64,000 nt of DNA from Shigella phage vB_SflM_004. Shown here piece by piece: positions 38,789 to 54,313 of the stretch. The notes beneath the pieces were generated by a model. The model was not told the origin of the DNA. It saw nothing but the letters and a program-made list of their open reading frames with translations, and did no database searches. Positions within the stretch are counted from its first letter, which is position 1. The number at the start of each line of letters is the position of its first letter. The stretch lies in sequence record MK295205. One strand, given 5' to 3'. A program made the position numbers and the translations under genes.

Positions 38789-38790
38789 TA

Positions 38791-39189
38791 TTAGCTCCCT
38801 TTATATTCGTATGTGTAAAGGTTAGTCGTGCTAGTGGGTGCAGTTCCTGTTACTGTGTCAATTAATTCCCAACCATTGGAAACTAAATCAGGTTGCTCCG
38901 TAGCAAATGAACGAACCTCTCCAACCGTACCATTTACTTTGTTAAGCAAATAGTTAATAATATAGTTAAACCACTGGCGACCCATAGGCTCTCCCCTTAA
39001 TAGGCCAGTGGCTTGAATTTCTGGAGGTGGTAATACTTTAAGCTGGTTACTCCCTTCTTGTTGTGATTTATCTTTTCTACCTTTGACGATTTGAGCAACT
39101 TCTGCCATAATACCATAATCGCCACCAGTTACCATTTCTTTACCAGCAATAAAATAGTCACTGCTATTGTTTGTCTTGCTGACTTTCAT
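38791..39189 (-). CDS. hypothetical structural protein
   Basis: 132-aa ORF directly upstream of tail fibre gene. Confidence 0.4.
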
Positions 39190-39601
39190 ATAATCTTTAC
39201 TGGTACTTCCACCAGTTTTGTCAACTCTAAAGTAACCATCCCTAATACCAGCATCTGCAAAGCTACCAAGCTTGTTAGCCTCCAGAGAACCACCTGTGTT
39301 GTTCGTAATAAGACCCTTGTTAGTGTCTGTAACAAACCAGTTGTTGTTCTCATCAGTAATTGCCAGACGTTATTCAGCAACTTCTACAGGAGTCCACGCA
39401 GTACCATTTAGCGTAATATCTCTTATGATAACTGCTACACTAATAGTTGCCAGAGTTAATTCAGGAGATGTGTATGCTGTATCTACAACGTTGTTTCGAG
39501 TGTTTACACGAACAACAATACCACCCGTCATAGGTGTGATATGTTCAAAGATTTGACTAAACGTTGCATTGTAGTGATGCCTAGCAAGTTCGTAAAAGCC
39601 T

Positions 39602-40174
39602 TTAACAGTGACACTTTAAGGTCTGCACCAAATGCACGAATACCAGCAGGTTTTGTGTCCCAGATTGCTTGTGCGATGTTAACATTCTTATTGTTGAAAG
39701 AAGAAGCCCATAAAGCTTACTGTGAAGCCCATCATAATTTGTAGTCTCTGTGTCGTTCTCTACACCAGAAGCATCAGATACACCTTGAACCCTCTTGACA
39801 GCAGCTACAATAGCATCTAAAGTACCTACACCAGTAACGGCTAAGGATTCTAGATAACGCTGTCTAAGTTCTGTATCAGTTTCTTCGTTACGACCTGCTG
39901 TTAAATCGTATCTGTTAAATACCCCATCAAGACCATCTACAGTCGTTTCAATCTCAATAAAAACTCCACGGAGAGTTTGCAAAACTCCAGTTTCTTCAGC
40001 TACAACGTCACTAATTGATACAATCTTTGTAAATGTTAGGAAGGTCGTTGCAGTTACAACCATAGGGTTTGTTCTTGCAATGATATCTCCAGTATCTTTA
40101 TAGATTCTCAGAAGAGAACCGTCATTGATGACTTCAGCTTTTGCTGCAATACCACCATTGATAGAGTCTGCCAA
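39602..40174 (-). CDS. putative tail/baseplate protein, 3' end disrupted
   Basis: 190-aa ORF; C-terminal ~45 codons read through an inserted fragment (39565-39740) homologous to the 25954 gene. Confidence 0.35.
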
Positions 40175-40244
40175 GTGTTGTAACAGAGTCGTAATGGTAT
40201 CTGAGCTTGTAGGATGGTAAGAGTACTAAGTTGACAAGGTGCCC

Positions 40245-40750
40245 TTATACAATATCTTATATAGGAGGGCTTATGAGCCACCGTGGAAGAACCCATGCAG
40301 CGATGATGAAAGGTGCTTCAAAGGAGACTATCAAGAATCGTAAGCAGAAGTATTTCAAATGTGGTGTCATCTGTTGTTACTTTATTCTTTTGAGATGTTT
40401 GAGAGAATGAACAGGCTAATTGACAATTCATCTCTTTCAGGTTCTGAGAAGGTTTTCTTGAAAGGTAATCTGAAAAGCATTGCACAAGAACTTATTGACA
40501 TTGAGTATTGGAGACATCAAAAATGACACTTGCAGACGTTATTCAGCTCCAGAGTTAATTCAGGAATGTCCATTGTAGTCATGCCTAGCAAGTTCGTAAA
40601 AACCTTTAACAACGACGCTTTAAGGTCTACACACATCCTTATCGTGATTGCAAAAGACCGTACTGGAGTACTCAAAGGTGAACGTATTGATATTCTGGAG
40701 TCTGGGGAAGTGTTGGTAAAGGTTTTGACTGGACACTTCTTCGTGATTCC
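40245..40750. repeat. degraded mosaic copy of the small-gene cassette at 25700-26260
   Basis: colinear ~85 percent identical segments including the RBS and start of the 25748 gene, the SEKVFLKGNLKSIAQELIDIE segment, VVMPSKFVK segment and KDRTGVLKGERI segment, with internal indels. Confidence 0.7.
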
Positions 40751-40852
40751 TTAAAAGTTCTGGTATAAAAACACAAAAGGGGAAGACCTTTTACAGTCTC
40801 CCCCTTATTAGGATTTGTCAAACGTTAAACGTAGTGATTGTTGAAGTGTAGT

Positions 40853-41257
40853 CTAACTTCTCACAACCAAAAATCCAAGTTTTAGAGTTCTGGTCACGTC
40901 CAAGTTCAATCTGTGGAAGCTCTTGCAACCAAGCATTATTACCAGAACTGAACCGGATGGGTCATAAATTACGAAGTTAGATGAAATGTCTTCTTCAAGT
41001 TCCATGTCATCTTGTTTAGCTTGAATTGCAGAAAGCATCTGGTTAGATAGAGAAGTCTGCATTAGCTCAATCTCAATCGTACCTGTTTTATCTGCGTTTC
41101 TTGTCAGAGCTACTTGACCACCTGCACCTACAACTGGCGTAACAAGTGGAGAAGTTCTCTGAAGACGTAAGAATGAGTCTGGTGCAAAACCTTCAATGGC
41201 AATGCCATTCCAGCTACAAACTACATCTTTAGGGGAATATTGCTGATACATAGCCAT
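40853..41257 (-). CDS. hypothetical structural protein
   Basis: 134-aa ORF in tail module; 3' end possibly frameshifted. Confidence 0.4.
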   Translation of the reverse strand: MAMYQQYSPKDVVCSWNGIAIEGFAPDSFLRLQRTSPLVTPVVGAGGQVALTRNADKTGTIEIELMQTSLSNQMLSAIQAKQDDMELEEDISSNFVIYDPSGSVLVIMLGCKSFHRLNLDVTRTLKLGFLVVRS

Positions 41258-41272
41258 TCCTATTTACTCCTA

Positions 41273-41581
41273 TTATTCGTAAGCCACTGTGCCTTTCAAG
41301 TCCACATCCAAGATTGCCCCTGCTAAGATACCGTGGAAGGTAATGTCTTTCAGGATACGAGCTTTCTTATCTGCAAGTGATACTTGTGAGGCTTTAGGAA
41401 CAGTAACGGTATAAGTAGACAAAAAGTTTCTGTTAACTGCTCTCTGAAGAGATGTTTCAATGACCTGACGAACACGAGTAATACCTGTATCATCATAAGT
41501 AATCTTACCACCCTTCTGATTAATTAGCAAGTCTCTTAGAGAAGTTTTCAAGTCTGATTCAAGCCAATCGACATCACTCAT
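41273..41581 (-). CDS. hypothetical structural protein
   Basis: 102-aa ORF. Confidence 0.4.
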   Translation of the reverse strand: MSDVDWLESDLKTSLRDLLINQKGGKITYDDTGITRVRQVIETSLQRAVNRNFLSTYTVTVPKASQVSLADKKARILKDITFHGILAGAILDVDLKGTVAYE

Positions 41582-41584
41582 TAT

Positions 41585-41929
41585 TTAAAAACATACACCA
41601 CCAGAAGTGATACCTCTACGCACTACGAGAGGTAGACTATCGTGAACAATAAGGTTACAGCTACGTGCATCAAGTGCTGACTTCTGAATGCTTGTCAGAG
41701 GTCTCTTGTTAGCTGGCTGCATAGATGCTGCTACACCAGTTAACTGAGCATTACCCCAAGCAATAGAACCTGCATCGTATGGAGCACCATAAGCAATGTA
41801 AGCCATTTCTGGGTAGTCAAAGCTTGCTGTGTGATGCCATAGACATACTGTACGAGTGTACTTACTCTTAGAGAGTTGTGTGAAAGCAATGGTTGCAGAA
41901 GCCAGTTCAGTTCCTTGCAGAGCTTTCAT
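41585..41929 (-). CDS. hypothetical structural protein
   Basis: 114-aa ORF. Confidence 0.4.
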   Translation of the reverse strand: MKALQGTELASATIAFTQLSKSKYTRTVCLWHHTASFDYPEMAYIAYGAPYDAGSIAWGNAQLTGVAASMQPANKRPLTSIQKSALDARSCNLIVHDSLPLVVRRGITSGGVCF

Positions 41930-42129
41930 GTCATTGCTTGCCTTGGAGTAATTTTTCTATCTGGCTGTAATCCCTCATTGCAGTAACGAACTGTGAAGTT
42001 CTGTCTTCAGTTGCAATAAAGTACCAATCAGTTGAGTACGTTTCAATTGCAGCCAGAGCTACAGAAGCACTATCAGCAGTTGTTGCAGAGATTGAAAGAG
42101 TCTGTGCAGTTGTTGTAACTCTTACGAGG

Positions 42130-42375
42130 ACAAAAACGCTTCTTATAGCCTCCCACCAGAGATGCAAGATTGCAGAGTCTATAAGTTACATGGTGATGCC
42201 ATAAGCAATAGCCCCTGTATCAAGCACCGAGACATTGTTGTTGTCAGGTGTCCAAACTGTGGTACTCATCTCTAACCTTTGTTTTAGCTCAAGCATAATG
42301 CTGTGAGCACCTTTACCATTTACAGTAATTAATACTGGAATCTGAAAAGCAATTCAAACAACAACATCTTACACG
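42130..42375. repeat. diverged fragment of the lipoprotein gene (45990-46090) between structural genes
   Basis: shared strings cctcccaccagagatgcaagattgcagagt and ttacatggtgatgc.ataagca. Confidence 0.6.
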
Positions 42376-42381
42376 AATTTA

Positions 42382-42669
42382 TCAAGAACCCAACCATAAG
42401 GTGTGACAGCATCTTGACAGTAAACTGTAATAAACGGTTGGTCTGGTTGCTATGGCAAAAATGATTCTTGTATCTGTTAGTCTGATACCTTCAGGTAAAA
42501 CAATCTGTGTACCATTCTTTACAGAACCCTTAATATAAGGTTGAATATTACCTTTGCAGGGAATGTCAACAATATCTTCAGAAGCTACCCAATCACCATC
42601 GTTATTGTAATAACCATCTTCAGATACTTTGCGTTTCACTACAAAGCTGTGTCTGTTTAAGAGTCTCAT
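42382..42669 (-). CDS. hypothetical head-tail protein, 3' end disrupted
   Basis: 95-aa ORF whose last ~20 codons run into the inserted fragment. Confidence 0.35.
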   Translation of the reverse strand: MRLLNRHSFVVKRKVSEDGYYNNDGDWVASEDIVDIPCKGNIQPYIKGSVKNGTQIVLPEGIRLTDTRIIFAIATRPTVYYSLLSRCCHTLWLGS

Positions 42670-42953
42670 TTTTTAATACCTTTCTTAGTAGAAATTTTAT
42701 AAGCAAGGTTATCTCGTAAATCCCCAGTTTCTACAAGAGGTGCGTTGAAACCTTTTTGTTTAATTGTAGAAGGAGCGTTAGGAGGGAGGATAGCAGTATT
42801 ACCAAAGCCTCTCTTAATTGCCTTTTGAGCATTCTTTGCAAATGCCTCTAAAGTTTCTGAGGGGTCTGTATTAAGACTATTTAGTTGCTTATAGAGATTC
42901 TTCTTAGTCTGCTCTAACAAGGTCTGTCTGTGTAACATCATAGTAATTAGCAA
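42666..42953 (-). CDS. hypothetical structural protein
   Basis: 95-aa ORF. Confidence 0.4.
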   Translation of the reverse strand: MLITMMLHRQTLLEQTKKNLYKQLNSLNTDPSETLEAFAKNAQKAIKRGFGNTAILPPNAPSTIKQKGFNAPLVETGDLRDNLAYKISTKKGIKK

Positions 42954-42971
42954 GGATTACGACGACGCATG

Positions 42972-43283
42972 TCAATCACACACTGCATAAGGGAGGCCAC
43001 TAACAGAGCTTTTAACTAGGTCGTCATATACAGCTTTAAGAGATTTGAATCTGGAAGAGTTACGTAAGTAAACACCACCAACCTTCTCATCTCCCATCTT
43101 GGCTACTTGAAAGAGTAAATATTTAAGAGCTTTGATGGCTGCTTTCTTTTCATCCTTTCCAGATTCTTGGTAGAACCACTCTAGCACCGATTGGTCAATG
43201 AGGATTTCACTGTTATTGAGTGAGGTGCTCAAGATGGAAGTCCTAGTAAAAGGGTTATTAGCGGGGTCGCCTGTATAACACAT
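42972..43283 (-). CDS. hypothetical structural protein
   Basis: 103-aa ORF downstream of capsid gene. Confidence 0.4.
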   Translation of the reverse strand: MCYTGDPANNPFTRTSILSTSLNNSEILIDQSVLEWFYQESGKDEKKAAIKALKYLLFQVAKMGDEKVGGVYLRNSSRFKSLKAVYDDLVKSSVSGLPYAVCD

Positions 43284-43304
43284 TATAACCCTCCTTTCAA
43301 GTTA

Positions 43305-44447
43305 TTACTCAGCGTCTGAACGAACGTCAACAAGCAGTTGAGGACGTGTGCAGTATGGCAGCATGTAAGAGTGAGCTTCGAAGTCAATACCTTCGTCACG
43401 GTCTTTCTCATATTCGAACACATACAGTTCCTGACCCAGAGTGTTTGCATAACCCATCTTAGGACATGGAGCTATATCTACTGTTATGATGTTGTTCACT
43501 CCACTCAACATTGCTACGTTAGGGAATGCGTGACCTACACCTACAGTTGAAGCATCAACACCATCGATGCTAACCAGAGTATGAGTCTTACCACGCTTAT
43601 CTTTGAACTTACCGTTGTACTGTACGAATACACAACCGTAGTAGAAACGGTTCATGTGAGCCTGAACACCGTCAGTTCCACCAGTTCTCAGAGAACCAGT
43701 AATCTGTTGCCAAGCAAGCGGAGTCTGCTGTGCAAGGTATGCGTCACGAATCTTAGGATGCTTGATAAGCTTGCTGAAGAAAGTTCTGTCAACAACGATG
43801 TGAATTTCTTCACCGTTGATTACAGTACCTCAACGTAATCCAATAGTTCCACGAGAAGGTTCGATATCAGAGTTCGGGTTGTCCAAGTCGAAGTAGATAG
43901 TCTTCTTAGTTACGTCGAACTGCTTGTACAGGTCTGCGTACAGAACACCGTTAGCATCGATAACTTTACCCTTCAGAGCTTGCATGAACAGGAACTCACG
44001 AGTAATATCGGAGTTGGTTCGAATCGTCATCAGCTTCTTAGCACGTACAACTGCTTCAGTAGTCAGTTCATTTGCAGTGCCTGGCTGACGAACACCCTGA
44101 ATCTCATCAGGAGTGATGCTTTCAACTTCCTTGAAGTACATCATTGGGAAGCTAATCTGACGAACACGCTCAGGAGCGCTAGTCTCAGCTTTACGGCTAG
44201 TACGGTCTAGATAAGACAGTTGCAGGTCTGCGTAGAAGTTAACGATACATACAGAGTCTGCCTGAGCTTCTTCACCTGCTGCGACCTTAGTACCATCAGC
44301 TTTCAGGGTTGGACTTACACTGTATTCTGTGCTGGCTACTGGAGCGTACTCTTTACGAGAGTGACCAGTTGGGGTGATTTCTTCCCAAAGGAAAGCATCA
44401 TTCATAAGTTCTCTGTTACCTAAATGTGTAAAACCTTGATATGCCAT
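43305..44447 (-). CDS. major capsid protein (lambda gpE-like) with in-frame TGA
   Basis: track ORFs 43830-44447 and 43305-43655 are in the same frame, separated only by TGA at 43830-43832 and 58 stop-free codons; combined ~380 aa with E-like C-terminal pattern. Confidence 0.55.
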
Positions 44448-44459
44448 TATTTGTGTTCC

Positions 44460-45407
44460 TTATTTCTTGATAAGAGTATTCAAAGCATTCTGGAGAGCCA
44501 GTTTGCGTTGGTCAGCGTTAGCATTAGCACTTGCTTCTGGAGCGGTATCTTTACCGTCATCCACTTCTGCTTCGCCGTTATTGCCAAGTTCTTCCATAGC
44601 GTTTGAGTGTTCCAGAACAGCACCAGCCGCTTCTTTCAGCTTAGTGATTTCAGAATCCTTCTCAGACATGGCAGAAGCATGGGACGCGATAGTTTCATTA
44701 AGTTTCTGGTTAGCACCTTCCATAACATTCATAAACAGAACACTCAGAGGGTTATCAAGACCAGCACCTAAAATAGCTGTTGCAGCTTCTTTTGCGTCAA
44801 ATCCAAAAGCTTCAGCAGATGCAGAAATCTTACCAGTTAAATCTGTAAGTGCTGCTTCCTGTTCCTTAGCTTTCATTTGAGCAACCTGAAGACGCAGAGC
44901 TTCTAGTTCTTGCTTTTCTTGTTCAGTCATTTCTTCACCTGAATTGTTTGTGTTTAAACTTACAGGAGCTTCTTCAGAACCTTGTAAGTAATTTAAGAAA
45001 TCATCTTGAGACATGATAGAATTAATTAAACCAAGTTCAAGAGCTTCCTGAGCAGAATAAACATTTGCCTCAGTATTCTTTACAGCTTCTTCAGAGATAT
45101 TACGTGAGTCTGCAACAAAACTAGTAAAAGTTTCGTAGGTGTCATCAATTCTCTTTTGAAGTCTATTCTTGCTTTCTTCTGATATTGCTGGTGATGGAGA
45201 ACCCATACCTTTAAATTCACCAGCCTTAATAACGTTAATTGTAACGCCATTCTTTTCAAGTGATTGACGTAGAGATTGGTGGACCATAATTACACCGATT
45301 GAACCAACATCTGCATCTGGTGATGCAATAATTTCTTCAGCAGAAGATGCAAGAGCATATGCAGCAGAGCAAGCAAACTCATCTACATAAGCAATAATTT
45401 TCTTTTT
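44460..45407 (-). CDS. prohead protease (S49/SppA-like) fused to scaffold-like domain, 5'-truncated
   Basis: protease-like sequence KKIIAYVDEFACSAAYALASSAEEIIASPDADVGSIGV...NVIKAGEFKGMGSP runs upstream of first ATG (45287) without a start codon and is cut by a stop at about 45480; C-terminal half is Ala/Glu/Lys-rich coiled coil. Confidence 0.55.
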   Translation of the reverse strand, partial: KKKIIAYVDEFACSAAYALASSAEEIIASPDADVGSIGVIMVHQSLRQSLEKNGVTINVIKAGEFKGMGSPSPAISEESKNRLQKRIDDTYETFTSFVADSRNISEEAVKNTEANVYSAQEALELGLINSIMSQDDFLNYLQGSEEAPVSLNTNNSGEEMTEQEKQELEALRLQVAQMKAKEQEAALTDLTGKISASAEAFGFDAKEAATAILGAGLDNPLSVLFMNVMEGANQKLNETIASHASAMSEKDSEITKLKEAAGAVLEHSNAMEELGNNGEAEVDDGKDTAPEASANANADQRKLALQNALNTLIKK

Positions 45408-45418
45408 GCTAAGAGAAA

Positions 45419-45610
45419 ATGAACAAAGAAGATAAGCATAAAAATGCTGTACGAACTCCTGATGGAAAGGTTCAATCCTTCATCCTGACAGTTGGTGGAA
45501 AACCGTTTCGTTGCCACTGCGGAGCAAACTGTTTTCATAAACCAGATAAAAATGATTTAGAGCTTTACGCATGTAATGCTTGCAATACTTGGTATCACTC
45601 AGAGGAATAA
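45419..45610 (+). CDS. hypothetical Cys-rich small protein
   Basis: 63 aa, CHCGANCF...CNACNTW; its 3' part recurs at 49420-49470. Confidence 0.35.
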   Translation: MNKEDKHKNAVRTPDGKVQSFILTVGGKPFRCHCGANCFHKPDKNDLELYACNACNTWYHSEE

Positions 45611-45885
45611 AATGACAATACTGTACAAACAAAATAAAGATGGCTCTTTTAACATCTGGTCATGTACTGCTGTAGGTGACAAGGTTATTACAACCTCGGT
45701 AAAGAAAATGGCAAGATGAAGAGTATACAGCAGAACCTAAAAACATCGGTAAAAAGAATGAGCGTAACGCTGAACAGCAAGCTCTCTTTGAAGTTGCTGC
45801 TAAGTATAAAAAGCAGGTTGACCGCTAAGATTGCAAAAGACCGTACTGGAGTACTCAAAGGTGAACGTATTGATATTCTGGAGTT
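45540..45885. repeat. chain of short fragments copied in order from loci at 49420-51960 and 40640
   Basis: exact or near-exact 23-50-nt matches to 49420-49470, 49725-49750, 50105-50135, 51185-51235, 51428-51455, 51925-51958, 40640-40695, in the same order. Confidence 0.7.
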
Positions 45886-45888
45886 GCT

Positions 45889-46158
45889 ATGAAGAAAATG
45901 TACAGTCTCTGGGGAAGTATTATGTGGAAAGCAGTAATTGCGCTTGGTGTTGTTTTTCTATCTGGCTGCAACCCTTCTTATGAAGATAAAAATGCTTCTT
46001 ACAGTCTCCCACCAGAGATGCAAGATTGCAGAGTATACAAGTTACATGGTGATGCTATAAGCAGAGATATTGTTGTTGTCAGATGTCCAAACTCCCAAAC
46101 AACAACATCTTATAGCTATGGCAAAAATGGTCAATCACACACTACGGTTATTGAGTGA
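45889..46158 (+). CDS. putative lipoprotein
   Basis: signal peptide with lipobox VFLSGC; 89 aa; degraded paralog at 26590-26763. Confidence 0.5.
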   Translation: MKKMYSLWGSIMWKAVIALGVVFLSGCNPSYEDKNASYSLPPEMQDCRVYKLHGDAISRDIVVVRCPNSQTTTSYSYGKNGQSHTTVIE

Positions 46159-46699
46159 GGTTTTTTCTATCAAGAACTCGATACTGCTTCTCTGAAAGAT
46201 TTGCAAACTTACAGAAACGACGAACAAAACGCATGTGTCGTGATTTTACTCGTGGTAACCATTTTGCTGCCAGAGCAGACGTGTTAGGGTCTAACAGTGC
46301 AGCTTCTAAATGCTTGAAAGCATCTGTTTCGTAACGTGTACCAACAAAGATTTTGAAGTCGTCGTAACGACCTAAGTCAGAAATCTTATCCATGATACGC
46401 AATACTTGGAACTCATCAAGTATACCATCAGAGATTGCCTTGGTAAGAGTATAACGGAACGCTTTGCGCTCTCCCATACCTTCTCGTGCATCTCGCATGT
46501 GTAACAGGATTCGAACTGCTACATCAATGTCTTCTCGCATAGCCTTGTAAAACAAGTTTGGAAGACTCTCTACATTTGACCTGCTTGAACCAGCAGCTTT
46601 GTAGAAATCTACCAGTGCAGACATTGAAGAGGTGTGGTTAACAGCACCGTTTTCAGTTAAACCTGCATGTAGATGCGAGTGTTTAAATAATTCGCTCAT
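46148..46699 (-). CDS. hypothetical protein (possibly N-terminal fragment of a larger gene)
   Basis: 183 aa; GLTENGAV...RILLHMRDAREGMGERKAFR is reminiscent of TROVE/DUF2828-type N-termini (weak, from memory); ORF ends where the lipoprotein block begins. Confidence 0.35.
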   Translation of the reverse strand: MSELFKHSHLHAGLTENGAVNHTSSMSALVDFYKAAGSSRSNVESLPNLFYKAMREDIDVAVRILLHMRDAREGMGERKAFRYTLTKAISDGILDEFQVLRIMDKISDLGRYDDFKIFVGTRYETDAFKHLEAALLDPNTSALAAKWLPRVKSRHMRFVRRFCKFANLSEKQYRVLDRKNLTQ

Positions 46700-46951
46700 A
46701 TTAATTCTCTCTCGTTAGAATGTTTTGGTGAGACAGACTCTAACGTTTGATTCAGAACCTGTCAACACCTTTTTATTATTTTTTCAGAGTTGCTACAGCA
46801 GAGAACGTTGGTTTGTTTTCCTGTGGCTTATCTCCACCTTTCTCACCGCTATTCTTACTGTCTGCTGCAATGGCTTTCATCTCACCTGCTGAGTGAGTCA
46901 TGATAGTCTTACCAGCTTCCATCATTGACTTCAGGTTTACGTTATCAACCG

Positions 46952-47146
46952 TCAAACCAAACTCTTGAGCTTGTTCGCATTGCTGGTAACAACTGCCTCA
47001 AACAGCTTTGCAGCATACTCTGCTGAGTTGTCAATAGTCAACTGTGCCTTGACCAGTGAACTTTTGTTACGAGAACCCTTTGGTCTTCCAGATGGGTTAC
47101 CTGATTGGCCTTTCTTGAACTGGCCTTTGTTAGTTCGTTTAGTCAT
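46952..47146 (-). CDS. hypothetical protein with GNPxGRPKG N-terminal motif
   Basis: KGQFKKGQSGNPSGRPKGSRNK; reading frame appears to shift downstream (46760-46950). Confidence 0.35.
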   Translation of the reverse strand: MTKRTNKGQFKKGQSGNPSGRPKGSRNKSSLVKAQLTIDNSAEYAAKLFEAVVTSNANKLKSLV

Positions 47147-47322
47147 TTCTTCACCTCTTTTAAGACTTCTTAAAAGGCTTTTAAGATAAGAGATAGATAT
47201 CCAGAAAGATATCTGTTTAAATAGCCTTTTTAGAAGAGTCTTTTAAGTAATCTTCTAAGTGTTTTATTAGGCTACACGTTGTCAAGAGGAATGTCAAGTA
47301 AATTTTTTAGTTGCAATACTTC

Positions 47323-47351
47323 TTGACTTGTTGTATGGATTACTGTACCAT
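47323..47351 (+). promoter_or_regulatory. sigma70-like promoter
   Basis: TTGACT, 17-nt spacer, TACCAT; precedes AAGGAGA SD and ATG at 47396. Confidence 0.4.
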
Positions 47352-47395
47352 CTTACTAAAGCTGTAGGTCTGCCTTTATCTACAAAGGAGACTTA

Positions 47396-47557
47396 ATGAG
47401 AAACAACACGAAATCGAAGACAGGTAATAATACCAATCACTGTAAGGAATCAAAGCGGGTAGAATTACTCTATTACAAATCCTCTGAAATTGGTTTGTAC
47501 CTATACTTTCAAAATTATAGACGACAAGAGGATTATTTATGTGTAGCTCCCAACTAG
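47396..47557 (+). CDS. hypothetical small protein (below track cut-off)
   Basis: 53 codons, strong SD AAGGAGA 7 nt upstream. Confidence 0.35.
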   Translation: MRNNTKSKTGNNTNHCKESKRVELLYYKSSEIGLYLYFQNYRRQEDYLCVAPN

Positions 47558-47772
47558 AAATCACAGATATTATTGATTTATACCAAACTGCAAAGAGTCA
47601 TGGGTATATCACTTCAATTGGAAAGAATAAGCACTATGATGCACTAACTGGTATGTATTTCAGAGCAATAGCTCAATCTAGTGAACAGGTTCTAATGGTT
47701 TCTTCCAGTGAATTTGCTTCATTTCTCTATTGCAGCAAGATTATCAATCGTAGGAGAACTGATAAATGTTAA
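47539..47772 (+). CDS. hypothetical protein
   Basis: 77-aa ORF. Confidence 0.4.
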   Translation: MCSSQLEITDIIDLYQTAKSHGYITSIGKNKHYDALTGMYFRAIAQSSEQVLMVSSSEFASFLYCSKIINRRRTDKC

Positions 47773-48134
47773 ACGTGAGTTTTAATTATAATGGTGATGG
47801 GTCTGTATCAATCACTTCACCATATTCTGATGACCTTCTTAAATGGTTGGACTTACACTGTGGAAGAGGTATGCACTACGTACCTAATTCATTTAAACAG
47901 AAAACAATTGCAAATAACTTGATGCGTGTTACTGTTCAGTCAATGAACCCAGATTATAACATTGATGGTGAAAGCCCATATTCACTTATGGCTTTAGGTG
48001 CTAATAGTGAATTTAAACTGGTGTGTCATGATTCAGAAACATTCTTCAAAGTATTCTCAAATCTTATCCACAATGCTAAATACAGTTATGTAGCTGGTTC
48101 AGCATCATTCCAGCAAACTACACATGTGTTATGA
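47766..48134 (+). CDS. hypothetical protein
   Basis: 122-aa ORF. Confidence 0.45.
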   Translation: MLNVSFNYNGDGSVSITSPYSDDLLKWLDLHCGRGMHYVPNSFKQKTIANNLMRVTVQSMNPDYNIDGESPYSLMALGANSEFKLVCHDSETFFKVFSNLIHNAKYSYVAGSASFQQTTHVL

Positions 48135-48352
48135 TTGATAACCTCAGAGAGTCTGAAGATACTTCCACAGAGATTTCTTTCGATGTGAACACCTCTCCAG
48201 AGTCCACTCCAAGTAATGACTTCGACATGAACTATGCGTTATCTCTGAGTAAGAAATCTGATTTCATTGAGTACGTCAATGGATTTGGATTTAAGTTGGA
48301 TGAGACAATGAATCTCAAAAAACTTAAAAACATGCTTAAGACTATGGCTTAA
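48131..48352 (+). CDS. hypothetical acidic protein
   Basis: 73-aa ORF. Confidence 0.4.
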   Translation: MIDNLRESEDTSTEISFDVNTSPESTPSNDFDMNYALSLSKKSDFIEYVNGFGFKLDETMNLKKLKNMLKTMA

Positions 48353-48360
48353 GTTTTATA

Positions 48361-48381
48361 GGGGCTGATGCCCCTTTAATT
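48361..48381 (+). terminator. putative terminator
   Basis: hairpin GGGGC-TGAT-GCCCC followed by TTTAATT. Confidence 0.45.
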
Positions 48382-48398
48382 ATTTATAAGGATATTTA

Positions 48399-48743
48399 AT
48401 GAAAGCTAAGAGTGGAAAAGACTTTTATTGCTTCCTACAATCTTATGTCCAAAGTGTTCAAGAAGGTGACAGGTATAATCTTGATGATGTACTTCCGACA
48501 CCCTTAACATGGCGTGATAGCAAATGGCCTGAGAAGGATATCAACCCTACCGAAACATATTCCGAATACACACCTAAAATTCCTCTACCAGATACTGAAG
48601 AACTTCTTTACCCAATGTTTCATATCGTTGGTCTTGGTACATTTTTGATGGATATTCATAAGTTTGATGTTGCTGGCGATGTTTCTCCGCATCACAAAGG
48701 CTATTTTAGACTAAACGCACATTTAGAGGCTAAAAAGAAATGA
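48399..48743 (+). CDS. hypothetical protein (tandem paralog A)
   Basis: 114 aa; shares RY(N/D)...LP(T/L)..WPE.DI...YTP...EELLY with next gene. Confidence 0.45.
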   Translation: MKAKSGKDFYCFLQSYVQSVQEGDRYNLDDVLPTPLTWRDSKWPEKDINPTETYSEYTPKIPLPDTEELLYPMFHIVGLGTFLMDIHKFDVAGDVSPHHKGYFRLNAHLEAKKK

Positions 48744-48994
48744 TTAAAGCAAAGACTTACCCAGACTTCAAAGAGTTTGTTAAAGACTTTGTAGCGAATG
48801 TTAAAGCTGGCAAAAGATACGACTTCAGAAAGTATCAAGAGGCCGTTCTGCCTCTGACATATAGCTCACCGTGGCCTGAGTCTGATATCCCTGAAGTCTA
48901 CACACCAGATTATACAGTTCCATTTAGTGAAGAACTTTTATATTCAGTTGGTGCTCAGATGAGGACTGCTGACTTCTTCATGGATTGGTGGTAA
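48740..48994 (+). CDS. hypothetical protein (tandem paralog B)
   Basis: 84 aa; ATGA overlap with paralog A. Confidence 0.45.
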   Translation: MIKAKTYPDFKEFVKDFVANVKAGKRYDFRKYQEAVLPLTYSSPWPESDIPEVYTPDYTVPFSEELLYSVGAQMRTADFFMDWW

Positions 48995-49139
48995 GAGAAA
49001 ATGACTGTAGAAGATGACACAGTTTATTGTGAATGGTTGGCAAGGGTTAAACCTTTCTCCATGCTTAATGCAAAATTTAAGAACGCAATCACACCTCCAG
49101 TTCTTACAGAACAACTGACCAAACTGATGGTGAGCTTGA

Positions 49140-49470
49140 AACATTCATTCTTCGTGTTGATGGTACTGGTGCAACTGGTTATCAGTGGAAGAAAGGTGCA
49201 TCAAACATCTCTGGAGCAACCTCTGCAACATATACTAAGAATGGCGTAGTCCCTACTGATAGCTATTCCGGTGTCGTTGTGGGTCAAACTGTTTCTCCAA
49301 CACTGCTACAGTAACTGTGAATGCACTGCCTGTGATTACACAGCAACTAACCAAGAGATTACAGAGGGAGATACACTTACCCTTAGTATTGTAGCAACTG
49401 GTGCAACTGGTCACAAACCAGATAAAAATGACTTAGAGCTTTACGCATGTAATGCTTGCAATACTTGCAT
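49140..49470 (+). pseudogene. fragments of an Ig-like domain protein
   Basis: out-of-frame pieces DGTGATGYQWKKGASNISGATSATYTKNG and TVNALPVITQQLTNQEITEGDTLTLSIVATGATG typical of bacterial Ig-like repeats; no intact ORF. Confidence 0.4.
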
Positions 49471-49512
49471 CTCAATCTTCCAAGGTAGTTATTAATGCAG
49501 TAGGAGCATAAA

Positions 49513-49957
49513 ATGCAACTCTCAAGTAAAGGCTTAGAAGCCATTAAGTTCTTTGAAGGGTATCACTCAGAGGTTAAAAATGACAATTCTGTAATCCCTA
49601 CAATTGGTTATGGTACAATTCGTATCAACGGAAGACCTGTTACGATGGGGATGAAGATTACTGCCGAGCAAGCTGAACAATATCTCCTTGCAGATGTTGA
49701 GAACTATGTAGGTGCACAAACAAAATAAAGACGGCTCTTTTAACGTAGAATGAGTTTGATGCACTTGTTGTAGAGACTTACAACATTGGCATCGGTGCTA
49801 TGCAGGATTCAACTTTTATCAAGCGTCATAATGCTGGTAACAAAGCTGGTCATGCGCAGTGGTGGAACAAGATTACAGTGAATGGTCAAAAAGTAACTTC
49901 CAAGGGTCTACAAAATAGACGTAGTTTGGAAGCCAAGATTTACCTTGACGCTGTTTA
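49513..49957 (+). pseudogene. lysozyme (GH24 type) interrupted at 49720-49750
   Basis: N-terminus LEAIKFFEGY...PTIGYGT...ITAEQAEQYLL in frame 1; conserved C-terminus (NEFDALVVETYNIGIGAMQDSTFIKRHNAGN...) resumes in another frame after a ~27-nt foreign segment that recurs near 45630. Confidence 0.55.
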
Positions 49958-49974
49958 TCCAAAATAGTAGATTA

Positions 49975-49999
49975 AGAGGCTCCTTCGGGAGCCTTTTTT
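49975..49999 (+). terminator. rho-independent terminator
   Basis: hairpin GAGGCTCC-TTCG-GGAGCC followed by TTTTTT. Confidence 0.65.
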
Positions 50000-50005
50000 A
50001 TTTCT

Positions 50006-50416
50006 ATGGAGAAAACTATGAAACTTTGGGCTGATGATGTTGGGACTTTTAAGTACACAAGAAGTGGTATGAAGGTTCGTATTGCAGGAACCAAGTTGAT
50101 TGCTGTAGGTGACAAAGTTATTACAACCTTTACTGTAGAGCTTGTTGAGCTGTCGCCTATCACAATGGCTAACAAAGGCTTCTTTGCTGGTGAACTGTAC
50201 AACGTGGATGACAATGGTATGTTCTCACCTTTAGGTGAAAGTTCTCTTGATATTATTTCAGAACACCCCTTGACAAGAGAGCAGTTATCAGGTTACTATA
50301 AATTTCTACTTGAGAAGCAGAAGGAAGTACACAATCGTGAGGCTATTTACCATAACAATGAGTGTATCAAACTTCTGGATAAAATTGAGAAAGCTGAGAG
50401 AGGTTTTTATGAATAA
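50006..50416 (+). CDS. hypothetical protein
   Basis: 136-aa ORF. Confidence 0.45.
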   Translation: MEKTMKLWADDVGTFKYTRSGMKVRIAGTKLIAVGDKVITTFTVELVELSPITMANKGFFAGELYNVDDNGMFSPLGESSLDIISEHPLTREQLSGYYKFLLEKQKEVHNREAIYHNNECIKLLDKIEKAERGFYE

Positions 50417-50738
50417 CGAGATTCAAGTAAAGGTTGACACATTTGGTCATGATGGCGATGTATATCGTGGCTTGGCAAAAGCAATCATCTTCCAAGAAGA
50501 CGGGAGACTGAAGTTGCAGTTTGAATCAGGAAGCATCTTAGAACACAGTGGCGATGATGCAGATGGTTGTCCAATTTTTGGATGGTTTGACCTGAATTTT
50601 CATCTTTATGCAATCCACTACCCAGATGGTGGAGAAGACTGGACAACTCAATCTATCTTTGATGAACTGAATGGTGTACCTTGTTTCAGAACCAACCCTT
50701 CTAACTTTCACCTTCATCAAAGAAGAAAAAGTTGGTGA
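50409..50738 (+). CDS. hypothetical protein
   Basis: internal ATG (MNNEIQVKV) overlapping upstream stop. Confidence 0.4.
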   Translation: MNNEIQVKVDTFGHDGDVYRGLAKAIIFQEDGRLKLQFESGSILEHSGDDADGCPIFGWFDLNFHLYAIHYPDGGEDWTTQSIFDELNGVPCFRTNPSNFHLHQRRKSW

Positions 50739-50783
50739 TATCTCCGTAACAGAAGCTTTGCAAGTTACACAGGTAATCTGATA

Positions 50784-51077
50784 ATGAGTAAAGTACAGGT
50801 TATTTTCCCTATTTGTGACTTCTCACTAGAGCCTGAGTTTGACCTGTACGAAGAACTTACTGATGATGTTATCTGGGGTGTAGTATCAAAGGCCATTAAG
50901 AAACTCTATGGTGGCCTTTTAAACCCAAACAATGCAAAGGTATCTACAAAGCAAGTATCTGAACCGTACACCAGTTATGATGCTGAGAAACGTAAGTTTG
51001 AGATTACTTGCTATGACCTTCTTGTTTCTGAGAACAAAATCAACTACTTCTTCGTCAGAGAATATGCAGATGCTTAA
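50784..51077 (+). CDS. hypothetical protein
   Basis: 97-aa ORF. Confidence 0.4.
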   Translation: MSKVQVIFPICDFSLEPEFDLYEELTDDVIWGVVSKAIKKLYGGLLNPNNAKVSTKQVSEPYTSYDAEKRKFEITCYDLLVSENKINYFFVREYADA

Positions 51078-51414
51078 GCTCCACATCGTTGTTTATAAGA
51101 ATTTCGCAGATATACAAGAAGCCCTGTCATCAAAACTTGACAGGTCTTATCAAAGACTCTTTGTGATGTTTGACATGGTTGACGGTAAAGAAAATGGCAA
51201 GATGATGTTTGAAGAGTATACAGCAGAACCTAAAAGCCAAGACTCGGTGACAATCTTCGTAAAACATGATTTGTCATCTAAGAACATTGGTCTGCTGGAG
51301 TTCTATATCTTTAAAGCTACAGGTATGCGTGGCGAAAACATAAAAGTGGACTCTATAGAGGTTTTTGAGAAACCTAACACACCACTTAAAAAGTATTTAG
51401 TGAGGAAGTTATAG
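51064..51414 (+). CDS. hypothetical protein
   Basis: internal ATG (MQMLKLHIVV). Confidence 0.4.
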   Translation: MQMLKLHIVVYKNFADIQEALSSKLDRSYQRLFVMFDMVDGKENGKMMFEEYTAEPKSQDSVTIFVKHDLSSKNIGLLEFYIFKATGMRGENIKVDSIEVFEKPNTPLKKYLVRKL

Positions 51415-51557
51415 TATGAGTGTACACATCGGTAAAAAGAATGAGCGTAATGCTCCACAAGTAACACTGGTACAACACTTTGGAAACATTCAAGGTGTAC
51501 TGGCTGCATTTCAACCATCTATCACATCACCTGCAAAAGTTGCCAAATTGACTATGG

Positions 51558-51896
51558 ATGGAACAGCATATTGAAGAAGTTCAATACTTTAAATTCACAG
51601 ATAAAGAGGTTGATGAGGCACTTCTGAAGTACCGTTTAGACCTTGAGAAAGACATTAACCACCAAGAGCTTGTAACACTGTTTGGTGACCTTCACAAGCT
51701 TCTTGAAAAGGTTATGAAGCGCACATACTACATGAATAATGGTTCAATCGTCACCACTCTGATTTCACCGTTCACTGATGAGGTGATTTTGACAGATGAT
51801 AAGCAGTTCTTTGTCATGACTGCCTCAAGCTCAGATTGGTGGATGAAGAACACAGGTATGAAGACGATACTGCTTCAAGCTCAGATTGGTGGATGA
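51558..51896 (+). CDS. hypothetical protein
   Basis: 112-aa ORF; 3' end lies in a tandem duplication. Confidence 0.4.
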   Translation: MEQHIEEVQYFKFTDKEVDEALLKYRLDLEKDINHQELVTLFGDLHKLLEKVMKRTYYMNNGSIVTTLISPFTDEVILTDDKQFFVMTASSSDWWMKNTGMKTILLQAQIGG

Positions 51897-51920
51897 AGAA
51901 CACAGGAATGAAGACGATAG
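51828..51920. repeat. tandem direct duplication of ~46 bp
   Basis: ctcaagctcagattggtggatgaagaacacagg.atgaagacgata occurs twice back to back. Confidence 0.8.
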
Positions 51921-51975
51921 CTCTCTTTGAAGTTGCTGCTAAGTATAAAAAGCAAGTTGCTGCCTAGAAAATATG

Positions 51976-52004
51976 CTTGACAGTAATATCTAGAATTTTG
52001 TATG
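51976..52004 (+). promoter_or_regulatory. sigma70-like promoter
   Basis: TTGACA, 17-nt spacer, TATGAT. Confidence 0.55.
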
Positions 52005-52081
52005 ATGGGAGCTATCGAAAGGTAGTTCCCTTTTTTATTGGAGAGATAAAACCGTCAAAGTTAAAGAGTCAGATAAAGGTT

Positions 52082-52471
52082 ATGCTTACACAAAAGAGTC
52101 CAGCCCAAAGAACTAAGGCATTTGTTACGTATGTGTCTGATAGCGGGGTAGTATACTTTAGACCTGTGAAGAATATGCACTTCAAGTTGTACCCAGATTC
52201 ACCAAATCCCTTAGAAGGTCACTTGTGGGCTGGTAAAATCTATTCAACTGCTGATATTGAAAACTTAACCTTCACAGGAAGCTTCAGAAAGATTCTGGGT
52301 ATTGCCTTGGCAGACACTGGTATCGTTAAAGATGAAGATGCACAGAATACTGAGAAGGTAACTTTTGAGGCAACTCCGACTCTGAAGAAAGAGGCAACTC
52401 CAAAGGTTAGAACGATTGATGTTACTATAGAGGCTCCTACACACAGACTTTCAAACTCACGTTGTAGATAA
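52082..52471 (+). CDS. hypothetical protein
   Basis: internal ATG (MLTQKS) downstream of the promoter; track ORF starts inside the promoter. Confidence 0.4.
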   Translation: MLTQKSPAQRTKAFVTYVSDSGVVYFRPVKNMHFKLYPDSPNPLEGHLWAGKIYSTADIENLTFTGSFRKILGIALADTGIVKDEDAQNTEKVTFEATPTLKKEATPKVRTIDVTIEAPTHRLSNSRCR

Positions 52472-52523
52472 TGCTGAGGAGTACTTTAAACAGTTCTGTA
52501 ATCCTAATCCACACCACCATAAC

Positions 52524-52748
52524 TTGATTCCACCACAAAAGAAATTCAACTCAATGTTGACTAGTACTTGTGAAGATGCTAAAAAGAATGTGGAAGAACT
52601 AAAAGAAGCAATCAGTGTCACAGACCATGTGGTTAATAAGAATGACATTGAGTACACAGTAAGAATGATGTTAAAAGCTGGTTTCACACCTTATCAGATT
52701 GCTGAAGAGATTCAAAGGCAATTCTACAACGCAATGGTGAAAGAATGA
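52524..52748 (+). CDS. hypothetical protein
   Basis: 74-aa ORF. Confidence 0.4.
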   Translation: MIPPQKKFNSMLTSTCEDAKKNVEELKEAISVTDHVVNKNDIEYTVRMMLKAGFTPYQIAEEIQRQFYNAMVKE

Positions 52749-52922
52749 AAAGATGTACAGCTTCAGACGAGCTAAGAAGACTAAACAGTGTTATGGCAAA
52801 ATTGCCAGAGGTGATATCTTAGTATGTACTGAAGAATCACTTAAGAACGTTACTCCCAGAGGTAAAGTCCTGCAAAGACTTGTTGACCTTGAGTGGAACA
52901 AAAGATTGAGAGGGATTGAACA

Positions 52923-53309
52923 ATGATTTACGAAGATTCAAGAGACCAGATTTCTTATGAGAAATCAAGACACCATGTATCTTTCAAGATTGTGAAAGCA
53001 AATGGTGAAGAAGGAACTATTTCACACTTCGGAGGTGAAAATTGGTTTGCGCATGATGCTGCAAAGGTTAGCCATGCAAAGTATCTGAAGGCTTTCTACA
53101 GAGACTTCCCTGCTGATTACAACGAGCTTATCAATCTGGAAAATAAATGTAGAAGTGCTGAGCATAATACAAGAGGGTGGGCAGGGATAGCAATCATGTT
53201 ATCTGTATTCCTTGCTATGATTTGTGTAATCTCCTTCGGTGGCATGTACATGCAGGATTTAACGTTTAATCAAGCTCAACCGAAACTTGATGGTGTCCGA
53301 TTCCAATAG
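52923..53309 (+). CDS. hypothetical membrane protein
   Basis: 128 aa with C-terminal transmembrane segment GWAGIAIMLSVFLAMICVISFGGMYM. Confidence 0.45.
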   Translation: MIYEDSRDQISYEKSRHHVSFKIVKANGEEGTISHFGGENWFAHDAAKVSHAKYLKAFYRDFPADYNELINLENKCRSAEHNTRGWAGIAIMLSVFLAMICVISFGGMYMQDLTFNQAQPKLDGVRFQ

Positions 53310-53491
53310 TTGGTATCAGCCTCTCGTGTTGGAGAATGACGACTTACAAGAAGAGAATTGTAGGATTTCAAGGCAATTTTGAAGAGGTCAGTAGAGAATG
53401 CAACCTTGAGTATTGGCAGTGTATTTACAGCATATTCTCGTGAAAATACTAACAAGGCAATCTTAAAAGATGCCTATGGAGAAACTAAGTA

Positions 53492-53722
53492 ATGATTAGA
53501 ACACCTGTCAAGCCTTTTGGCTTTAACACTCTGGAAGAGTTTACAAAATCCCTACTGAAAGGCTTCTACAACGAACAGCCAGTAACAGTGATTAAGTCTG
53601 ACTTGTCAGAACTTCTTGATATGGTTATCAAGGCAACTTCTGAGAAGGAACCTGAGCAGGAACCTAAGAAGAAAGATAAAAAGGCTTCTTCAAAGAAAGA
53701 TAAAGAATCTGTTGAAGAGTAA
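53492..53722 (+). CDS. hypothetical protein
   Basis: 76 aa, Lys/Glu-rich tail. Confidence 0.4.
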   Translation: MIRTPVKPFGFNTLEEFTKSLLKGFYNEQPVTVIKSDLSELLDMVIKATSEKEPEQEPKKKDKKASSKKDKESVEE

Positions 53723-53765
53723 TCTGTCAAGGGGTGTAAAAGCCCCTGTTTAGAGGTAGCGAAAA

Positions 53766-54209: not shown

Positions 54210-54313
54210 CTAATACCTGACATTATGGCAATGTTAAAGGTATCCATCCTCCAAAGGGTGGTTGGAAAGATAACACTTTCTACATCGTTGAAGTTGCTTA
54301 CAAGCCACTTAAC

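What the first reader, a model, noticed from the sequence alone, without database searches (positions are those of the whole stretch)
45889..46158. Phage-encoded lipoprotein next to the structural module, with a decayed second copy
An 89-aa protein with signal peptide and lipobox (LSGC). Small phage lipoproteins of this kind are known to mediate superinfection exclusion by masking the receptor (for example T5 Llp, Cor). A start-less paralog is at 26590-26763 and a further fragment at 42130-42375.
Basis: partly seen in the sequence, partly recalled or inferred. Interest (0 to 1): 0.45.

Follow-up and report, generated by a model that had tools for sequence, protein, structure and literature searches.

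The report
Known phage lipoprotein gene, displaced copy
The 89-residue lipoprotein gene is real and belongs to a large family of small lipoproteins of virulent phages whose function is unknown, but its position beside the head genes and its two "decayed copies" come from a scrambled, non-viable mosaic of two phage genomes, not from phage biology.

Summary
The ORF at 45889-46158 exists and has a textbook lipoprotein signal with lipobox LSGC. It is 100% identical to hypothetical proteins of E. coli Felixounavirus phages. It belongs to a large family (phrog_902; precomputed Pfam DUF4884) with an invariant lipobox Cys and two further invariant Cys.

In every natural relative examined, the gene lies in the replication module, between the DNA polymerase and DNA ligase genes. 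It is never next to structural genes.

The window is a fine-grained mosaic:
- 1-26335 and 61709-64000 are a natural-looking Felixounavirus.
- 26.4-61.7 kb is Citrobacter phage Moogle DNA in 181 exact runs (median 56 bp). Portal, terminase, tape measure, spanins and all tRNAs are missing.
- A 2.4-kb Felixounavirus tract (small ORFs, lipoprotein gene, ligase) is threaded through this part as a 50-piece collinear chain.

The intact gene is a 339-bp piece of a second such thread. The "paralog" at 26590 is the syntenic copy, broken at the main breakpoint. The 42-kb fragment is part of the shredded thread.

The family shows no homology to T5 Llp, T1 Cor or the o-spanin beyond the signal peptide, and no PDB chain matches it in sequence. 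Superinfection exclusion remains an untested analogy. Verdict: a known gene in an artefactual context. Interest is low.

The parts
45889..46158 (+). Intact lipoprotein gene (89 aa; alternative start 45922 gives the 78-aa form). Lipobox LSGC, lipidated Cys27, Asn at +2, conserved Cys47 and Cys66.
   Evidence: 100% identical to LMP34 QBQ76083 and others. phrog_902 E 7e-17. Precomputed PF16225 DUF4884.
45826..46164 (+). 339-bp Felixounavirus fragment carrying the gene plus 63 bp of the 3' end of its native upstream ORF. It is a piece of a second threaded copy of the pol-ligase intergenic module.
   Evidence: 98.8% identical to LMP34 locus L001 6001-6339. Flanks switch to other sources at 45825/45826 and at 46164/46173.
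45410..45825 (+). Displaced fragment that natively lies downstream of the lipoprotein gene: a small Cys-rich ORF (45419-45610) and the 5' end of the DNA ligase gene (from 45613, frameshifted). Here it sits upstream, so the native order is inverted.
   Evidence: 45407-45824 is 96.9% identical to ULIM8 37955-38380. 85% to LMP34 6749-7120. Sequence read.
44460..45287 (-). N-terminally truncated prohead (S49) protease gene. The Moogle-derived block ends at 45409.
   Evidence: Pfam Peptidase_S49 profile positions 48-147 only. 72.6% of the Moogle protease is covered. Block 44210-45409 = Moogle 54356-55555.
46148..46699 (-). C-terminally truncated DUF2828 gene, convergent with the lipoprotein ORF and overlapping it by 11 bp.
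   Evidence: Pfam DUF2828 profile positions 1-67 of 405. 37% of the Moogle protein is covered. Moogle 66066 onward is 100% identical from 46173. Moogle 55555-66066 is absent.
26590..26794 (+). Syntenic (native-locus) copy of the lipoprotein gene, Mooglevirus type, inactivated: no start codon, a 12-codon foreign patch, and a 1-nt insertion.
   Evidence: It lies just after the switch from Felixounavirus-like to Moogle-like DNA at about 26335-26413.
40225..40701 (+). Extra copy of the two small ORFs that natively precede the lipoprotein gene. Its last 56 bp (40646-40701) are identical to 45829-45884.
41932..43250 (+). Shredded third copy of the lipoprotein gene: pieces at 41932-41976 (signal peptide and lipobox), 42119-42258, 42354-42371, 42449-42463, 42971-42984 and 43209-43250. 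They are interleaved with Moogle tail-sheath and head-module DNA.
34868..57959 (+). Span across which a 2.4-kb Felixounavirus tract (LMP34 L001 5522-7886) is threaded as 50 collinear, abutting pieces of 16-146 bp.
   Evidence: In the control, three other 2.4-kb tracts, a shuffled tract and a reversed tract gave chains of at most 1.

Best explanation
Shown:
- The ORF is an intact copy of a conserved Ounavirinae gene for a small lipoprotein (phrog_902; precomputed DUF4884).
- In real phages the gene lies in the replication module, in the order DNA polymerase, (HNH), 69-aa ORF, 72-aa ORF, lipoprotein, 68-aa ORF, 72-aa ORF, DNA ligase.
- In this window it sits on a 339-bp Felixounavirus fragment inside a 763-bp patch. 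That patch replaces 10.5 kb of phage Moogle: the protease N-terminus, head protein, portal, terminase, the tRNA array and most of DUF2828.
- The region 26.4-61.7 kb is a fine mosaic of exact Moogle runs and collinear shreds of the Felixounavirus pol-ligase tract. It cannot encode a viable phage.
- The two 'decayed copies' are the syntenic copy, broken at the main breakpoint, and a shredded thread.

Inferred about the window: no known biological recombination process gives this pattern. It looks like an in-silico merge, an assembly artefact or a generated sequence. I cannot say which.

Inferred about the protein in real phages:
- It is exported by Sec, lipidated at the invariant Cys and cleaved by signal peptidase II.
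- It folds into a beta domain of about 60 residues, stapled by a disulfide between the two other invariant Cys.
- It is made early, together with the replication genes.
- It acts on a conserved envelope component. My best guess, at about 0.3-0.35, is a superinfection-exclusion or envelope-protecting role that does not depend on one particular receptor.
For: Gene and family:
- ORF and lipobox.
- 100% identity to deposited phage proteins.
- The exact protein is indexed in 171 blocks of the assembly collection; the 8 contigs shown all have the pol-ligase context.
- phrog_902 E 7e-17.
- 631 clusters at 50% identity with E <= 1e-3.
- 151 of 161 members carry a lipobox; Cys16, Cys36 and Cys55 are invariant.
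- dN/dS about 0.06 against the Moogle and Michonne orthologs.

Mosaic:
- Block maps against Moogle, Michonne, LMP34 and ULIM8.
- 50-piece collinear chain, against at most 1 in controls.
- 181 exact Moogle runs, median 56 bp.
- Portal, terminase, tape measure, spike and spanins absent; most structural genes truncated or split across frames.
- 0 tRNAs, against 21 annotated in Moogle.
- No phage record covers 80% of 45000-47000.
- Junction sequences absent from three public collections.
- The two truncated flanking ORFs are absent from the 153-billion-gene index.
Against: - I could not identify the process that produced the mosaic.
- The left 26 kb and rIIA look like a natural, previously unsequenced Felixounavirus: mismatches to ULIM8 are concentrated at third codon positions. 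Part of the sequence is therefore genuine, and a real but defective recombinant cannot be excluded formally.
- The displaced gene keeps its Shine-Dalgarno sequence and its translational coupling, so it could be expressed if this DNA exists.
- A live Pfam scan did not reproduce the precomputed DUF4884 hit.
- The AlphaFold model is only of moderate confidence (pLDDT 72.9).
- There is no experimental evidence for any function of the family.
Confidence: 0.8

Rival explanations
1. One reading: a real phage genome keeps a receptor-masking superinfection-exclusion lipoprotein next to its structural or receptor-binding genes, as T5 does with Llp and T1 with Cor, and also carries decaying paralogs from earlier duplications.
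For: - It is a small lipoprotein of Llp-like size with extra Cys.
- Llp, Cor and Rtp45 show that periplasmic lipoproteins can block receptors (PMC9586334, PMC12685063).
- Homologous degraded copies do exist.
Against: - The natural locus is pol-ligase in all relatives checked.
- Both neighbours here are truncated genes.
- The copies belong to collinear shredded threads.
- There is no homology to Llp or Cor beyond the signal peptide.
- The mature domain is conserved across phages of many genera.
Confidence: 0.05
2. The mosaic is biological: a defective or recombinant genome from co-infection by a Felixounavirus and a Mooglevirus, for example a defective-interfering-like deletion and template-switch product. 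In that case the gene really was relocated in nature.
For: - The Felixounavirus part looks natural.
- Phage genomes are mosaic, and the two parents are related.
Against: - There are 181 exact Moogle runs with a median of 56 bp.
- The 50 abutting pieces of 16-146 bp from a non-homologous tract lie in strict order across 23 kb. No known recombination mechanism does this.
- Loss of portal, terminase, tape measure and spanins makes the genome non-propagating.
- The Moogle runs are 100% identical to a RefSeq record, including the whole rIIB gene.
Confidence: 0.08
3. The gene is the phage's o-spanin (Rz1-like outer-membrane lipoprotein of the lysis cassette).
For: - It is a small outer-membrane-type lipoprotein.
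- No other spanin gene is detectable in this window.
Against: - Relatives carry a separate annotated i-spanin/o-spanin pair elsewhere, Moogle121 and Moogle122.
- Profile comparison with the Moogle o-spanin aligns only the signal peptide.
- There is no adjacent or embedding i-spanin ORF in the native locus.
- No PHROG spanin family is matched.
Confidence: 0.03

Closest known systems
DUF4884 / phrog_902 small phage lipoproteins (e.g. LMP34 QBQ76083, Moogle gp40, Michonne gp43, FO1a gp90; 'Lipoprotein' of Vibrio phage JSF10 and Aeromonas phage Aeh1)
   Same: Identical or homologous sequence. Same length, lipobox, two conserved Cys and the VVRCPNS.TTT motif. Same family by HMM.
   Different: Nothing in the protein itself. 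Only the genomic position in this window differs: a head-module break instead of the pol-ligase cluster.
T5 Llp (lytic conversion lipoprotein, PDB 8A60/7QJF)
   Same: A small lipoprotein of a virulent phage, about 60 mature residues with Cys residues. Llp is periplasmic, bound to the outer membrane, and expressed early (PMC9586334).
   Different: No sequence homology outside the signal peptide and no fold match. Not linked to a receptor-binding gene. The hosts' receptors are diverse, and for Felix O1 types the receptor is LPS (my own knowledge).
Cor of T1/phi80/N15
   Same: A small lipoprotein that excludes phages.
   Different: Only the signal peptide aligns. In T1, cor lies in the tail-gene region, whereas this family lies among replication or early small ORFs.
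Rtp45 (superinfection-exclusion lipoprotein binding LptDE)
   Same: A periplasmic lipoprotein of about 6 kDa, acting on a conserved outer-membrane machine (PMC12685063). It is a precedent for a target other than a TonB-dependent receptor.
   Different: No PDB chain matches the query at E <= 10. No direct comparison with Rtp45 was made.
o-spanin (Rz1 class)
   Same: A small outer-membrane lipoprotein of a phage.
   Different: A separate spanin pair exists in relatives, and there is no homology.

Membership tests
Bacterial lipoprotein precursor (signal peptidase II substrate) | N-terminal signal with a basic n-region, an uncharged h-region and a lipobox [LVI][ASTVI][GAS]C, with the Cys within residues 15-35 | tested here: met
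   K2/K3, AVIALGVVF, L-S-G-C27 (Cys16 in the 78-aa form). 151 of 161 relatives have such a motif and the Cys is invariant. SignalP and LipoP were not available.
Bacterial lipoprotein precursor (signal peptidase II substrate) | Actual lipidation and LspA cleavage | not testable with these tools
   Needs globomycin sensitivity and palmitate labelling.
phrog_902 / Pfam DUF4884 (PF16225) | Significant match to the family HMM | tested here: met
   phrog_902 E 7e-17 over residues 11-87. PF16225 is listed in precomputed annotations for the query protein and 11 homologs. The live Pfam scan returned no hit, so Pfam membership rests on the precomputed tables.
phrog_902 / Pfam DUF4884 (PF16225) | Conserved core: Y.LP.EL.DCK.Y ... 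VVRCPNS.T.T ... GK, with two Cys | tested here: met
   Alignments A1 and A2.
T5 Llp family | Sequence or profile homology of the mature domain | tested here: not met
   hhalign aligns 18 columns, the signal peptide only. phmmer against the PDB gives 0 hits at E <= 10. The Llp sequence was verified against 8a60_B.
T5 Llp family | Similar fold | tested here: inconclusive
T5 Llp family | Gene adjacent to the receptor-binding protein gene | tested here: not met
   The native locus lies between DNA polymerase and ligase.
T5 Llp family | Binds and inactivates the phage's receptor | not testable with these tools
   Needs an adsorption or binding assay.
Cor family | Sequence or profile homology to Cor | tested here: not met
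   hhalign against T1 Cor aligns 19 columns, the signal peptide only. No annotated PHROG family was hit.
o-spanin (Rz1) | Homology to the lineage's o-spanin, and pairing with an i-spanin gene | tested here: not met
   Only the signal peptide aligns with Moogle121. The spanin pair is elsewhere in relatives. There is no i-spanin neighbour.

The most novel reading that the evidence does not exclude
DUF4884/phrog_902 lipoproteins are a widespread envelope factor of large virulent phages (Ounavirinae, Vequintavirinae, vibrio Demerecviridae, T4-like Aeromonas phages, jumbo phages, Acinetobacter phage-plasmids). They are made early and do not depend on a particular receptor. They would bind a conserved outer-membrane or periplasmic machine (an LptDE-, BAM-, Lol- or peptidoglycan-linked target) and so block secondary infection or protect the infected cell. 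That would be a new class of exclusion or envelope-remodelling protein, unrelated to Llp, Cor and Rtp45.
Probability: 0.25. Interest if true: 0.6.

Novelty: already known. Interest (0 to 1): 0.15.

Why it matters
For this finding the main lesson is caution. Both cues that made it look interesting, the adjacency to structural genes and the decaying paralogs, are properties of a scrambled sequence. In nature the gene is a single-copy member of the replication/early cluster.

The family itself is worth noting. It has hundreds of sequence clusters, is under strong purifying selection, carries an invariant lipidation site and a likely disulfide, and is present in many groups of virulent phages of Gram-negative bacteria. 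No function has been assigned. If it proves to be an exclusion or envelope-modifying factor, it would act on something conserved across genera. That would bear on phage cocktail design and on outer-membrane biology.

Tried and rejected
- A live Pfam scan at E up to 10, NCBIfam and PADLOC gave nothing meaningful.
- PDB sequence search: 0 hits.
- First AlphaFold run with 10 close homologs: pLDDT 55.7, unusable. Second run with 117 sequences: pLDDT 72.9.
- Literature searches for Felixounavirus + lipoprotein, DUF4884 and PF16225 found no functional study.
- Exact junction sequences were absent from viral contigs (right-hand junction) and from metagenome contigs and genome contigs (45825/45826 junction). 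The two flanking truncated ORFs and the NrdA ORF were not found by exact-protein look-up. The origin of the window therefore stays unidentified.
- o-spanin, Llp and Cor membership were considered and rejected.
- A promoter and terminator scan around the gene gave nothing clearly above background.
- I considered general sequencing or indel error as the cause of the broken genes. I rejected it because the left 26 kb has intact long ORFs, while the damage on the right comes in blocks.

Full report

Yes. The ORF at 45889..46158 (+) encodes 89 aa, MKKMYSLWGSIMWKAVIALGVVFLSGCNPSYEDKNASYSLPPEMQDCRVYKLHGDAISRDIVVVRCPNSQTTTSYSYGKNGQSHTTVIE. GGAG lies 5 nt before the ATG, and the ATG overlaps the stop of the upstream ORF (ATGA).

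The N-terminus has two Lys, an uncharged hydrophobic stretch and the lipobox L-S-G-C27. An internal ATG at 45922 gives the 78-aa form (Cys16) that most relatives are annotated with.

Both claimed extra copies are homologous:
- 26590-26794: tblastn E 2e-18, with a +1 frameshift at 26733.
- More pieces lie at 41932-41976, 42354-42371 and 43209-43250.
- A 56-bp exact repeat links 40646-40701 with 45829-45884.

**2. What the window is**

It is an Ounavirinae (Felix O1-like) sequence.
- Positions 1-26335 are collinear with E. coli Felixounavirus genomes: 95-98% identical to ULIM8, with intact long ORFs. Mismatches fall overwhelmingly at third codon positions, for example NrdA 2/1/38. The rIIA gene at 61709-64000 behaves the same way.
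- From about 26.4 kb to 61.7 kb the sequence derives from Citrobacter phage Moogle (NC_027293). There are 181 runs covered by exact Moogle 25-mers, median 56 bp, 20.6 kb in total. They include the entire rIIB gene at 100%.
- These runs are interrupted by short patches and by large deletions. Moogle 42742-49259, 50661-51359 and 55555-66066 are among the missing stretches.
- Portal, large terminase, tape measure, baseplate spike, both spanins and polynucleotide kinase have no tblastn hit.
- Sheath, major capsid protein, protease, tail fibre, ligase and others are truncated or split across frames.
- ARAGORN finds no tRNA, whereas 21 are annotated in Moogle.

This cannot be a propagating phage genome.

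**3. The threads**

A 2.4-kb Felixounavirus tract (LMP34 locus L001 5522-7886) covers the 3' end of an HNH gene, two small ORFs, the lipoprotein gene, two more small ORFs and DNA ligase. It is present in window 34868-57959 as a strictly collinear chain of 50 pieces.
- The pieces are 16-146 bp long and mostly 85-100% identical.
- Each piece starts where the previous one stopped in L001 coordinates (gap mostly 0 ± 5 bp).
- The pieces are separated by 31-4573 bp of Moogle-like DNA.

With the same procedure, three other 2.4-kb tracts, a shuffled tract and a reversed tract gave chains of at most 1.

A second, sparser thread consists of:
- 39699-39728, 39961-39986 and 40225-40701 (L001 5582-6059);
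- 45826-46164 (L001 6001-6339);
- 47845-47865, 48654-48683 and 48984-49004.

The intact lipoprotein gene is therefore simply the one piece of this second thread (339 bp, 98.8% to LMP34) that is long enough to hold a whole 270-bp gene.

I know of no recombination, transposition or homing process that yields ordered, abutting fragments of 16-146 bp from a non-homologous tract across 23 kb. It is the kind of pattern expected from a column-wise merge of misaligned genomes, from an assembly or polishing artefact, or from a generative or infilling procedure. I could not determine which.
- The junction sequences are absent from IMG/VR, the JGI metagenomes and the GTDB genomes.
- No INPHARED record covers 80% of 45000-47000.
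- The truncated ORFs flanking the gene are not in the 153-billion-gene index.

**4. The immediate surroundings of the gene**

- 44210-45409 is Moogle 54356-55555. It holds a prohead protease gene that lacks its N-terminal quarter (Pfam S49 profile positions 48-147 only).
- 45410-45825 holds a small Cys-rich ORF and the frameshifted first ~70 codons of DNA ligase. These sequences natively lie downstream of the lipoprotein gene.
- 45826-46164 is the lipoprotein fragment.
- From 46173 the sequence is Moogle 66066 onward at 100%. This gives a DUF2828 gene that keeps only 37% of its length and overlaps the lipoprotein ORF convergently.

The 763-bp patch thus stands in for 10.5 kb of head, packaging and tRNA genes.

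**5. The natural locus**

In LMP34, Moogle (gp40), Michonne (gp43), ULIM8 and eight metagenomic contigs that encode exactly this protein, the gene always lies in the same cluster: DNA polymerase, (HNH), 69 aa, 72 aa, lipoprotein, 68 aa, 72 aa, DNA ligase. The exact protein is indexed in 171 blocks of the assembly collection.

The 'start-less paralog' at 26590 occupies exactly this locus. It is Mooglevirus-type (closest to Michonne gp43) and begins just after the Felixounavirus-to-Moogle switch. It has three lesions: its start and signal-peptide codons are lost, a non-homologous patch of about 37 bp replaces EMQDC...NGD, and there is a 1-nt insertion.

**6. The family**

- PHROGs assigns the protein to phrog_902 (unknown function, E 7e-17).
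- Precomputed tables list PF16225 (DUF4884), although my live Pfam scan did not reproduce this.
- A profile search of 1.84 billion representatives found 631 clusters at E <= 1e-3 and 84 at <= 1e-10, all about 75-135 aa.
- 151 of 161 sequences have a lipobox in the first 45 residues.
- In a 117-sequence alignment the only invariant columns are the lipobox Cys and two further Cys (Cys16, Cys36 and Cys55 in 78-aa numbering). The core is a conserved Y.LP.EL.DCK.Y...VVRCPNS.T.T...GK.
- Members occur in Ounavirinae, Vequintavirinae, vibrio Demerecviridae, T4-like Aeromonas phages, jumbo phages of Erwinia and Escherichia, Acinetobacter phages and records of about 111 kb labelled A. baumannii plasmids. 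A DUF4884 protein is also reported in a T1-like phage.
- Every name given is 'hypothetical protein' or 'Lipoprotein'.
- dN/dS between the Felixounavirus and Mooglevirus orthologs is about 0.06, although dS is saturated.
- AlphaFold2 with the deep alignment (pLDDT 72.9) predicts the signal helix followed by a small five-strand beta domain.

**7. How it most likely works**

Shown: a conserved lipoprotein signal, two invariant extra Cys, purifying selection, a single-copy position in the replication cluster, and a broad spread across virulent phages of Gram-negative hosts.

Inferred from gene position: co-expression with early or middle replication genes.

Speculative: the target. The mature domain is conserved across phages with very different hosts and tail fibres, and the gene is never linked to receptor-binding genes. 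I therefore think a conserved envelope component is a more likely target than a specific receptor. A superinfection-exclusion or envelope-protecting role is my best guess (about 0.3-0.35). The periplasmic lipoproteins Llp (FhuA) and Rtp45 (LptDE) are mechanistic precedents (PMC9586334, PMC12685063).

**8. Comparison with known systems**

- T5 Llp: my recalled sequence was verified against PDB 8A60 chain B. Only the signal peptide aligns with the family profile.
- T1 Cor: the same result. In T1, cor also sits in the tail-gene region.
- Moogle o-spanin: the same result. Relatives carry a separate spanin pair.

The protein may work like an exclusion lipoprotein, but it is not a member of the Llp, Cor or spanin families.

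**9. Verdict**

The gene is real and already catalogued, with identical proteins in GenBank. Its family is uncharacterised. The features that made the finding attractive, its position beside structural genes and a decaying second copy, are artefacts of a non-biological-looking mosaic. Interest in the finding itself is low. The family as such is a reasonable candidate for experimental work.

Noticed in passing
window 34868-57959: A 2.4-kb Felixounavirus tract (small ORFs, lipoprotein gene, DNA ligase) is threaded through Moogle-like DNA as 50 collinear, abutting pieces of 16-146 bp. A second, sparser thread also exists. Controls give chains of at most 1.
   Followed up: yes
window 26400-61700: 181 runs of exact identity to the RefSeq genome of Citrobacter phage Moogle (median 56 bp, maximum 1547 bp covering all of rIIB at 60148-61694) alternate with short replaced patches and large deletions. 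The left 26 kb and rIIA are instead a natural-looking, previously unsequenced Felixounavirus.
   Followed up: yes
whole window: There are no tRNA genes, against 21 annotated in Moogle. There is also no tblastn hit for portal, large terminase, tape measure, baseplate spike, i-/o-spanin or polynucleotide kinase. The sequence cannot encode a viable phage.
   Followed up: yes
window 27000-28400: The DNA ligase gene at its native locus is also fragmentary (ORFs 27002-27397 and 27629-28114). About 670 bp at 27012-27686 has no counterpart in Moogle. Additional ligase pieces are scattered as far as 57959.
   Followed up: partly
window 57815-59870: Several repeated elements of about 50-110 bp (e.g. 57828-57876, 58157-58217, 58740-58810, 59484-59574, 59767-59866) each match many intergenic places in the ULIM8 and Moogle early regions. 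They are probably the repeated early promoter or intergenic elements of Felix O1-like phages.
   Followed up: no
L015 (ULIM8) 37519-37756; proteins P0012, P0013: Some natural or metagenomic copies of the lipoprotein gene carry frameshifts. ULIM8 ends ...SHYCY* instead of ...SHTTVIE*, and P0012 and P0013 are 64-aa frameshifted forms. These could be sequencing errors or real inactivation.
   Followed up: no
cluster of P0019: Family members occur on records of about 111 kb labelled Acinetobacter baumannii plasmids, which suggests phage-plasmids carry the gene.
   Followed up: no
window 45419-45610: A small ORF of 63 aa with a CxC...CxxC pattern (probable zinc ribbon). In relatives it natively precedes DNA ligase. 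Function unknown.
   Followed up: no
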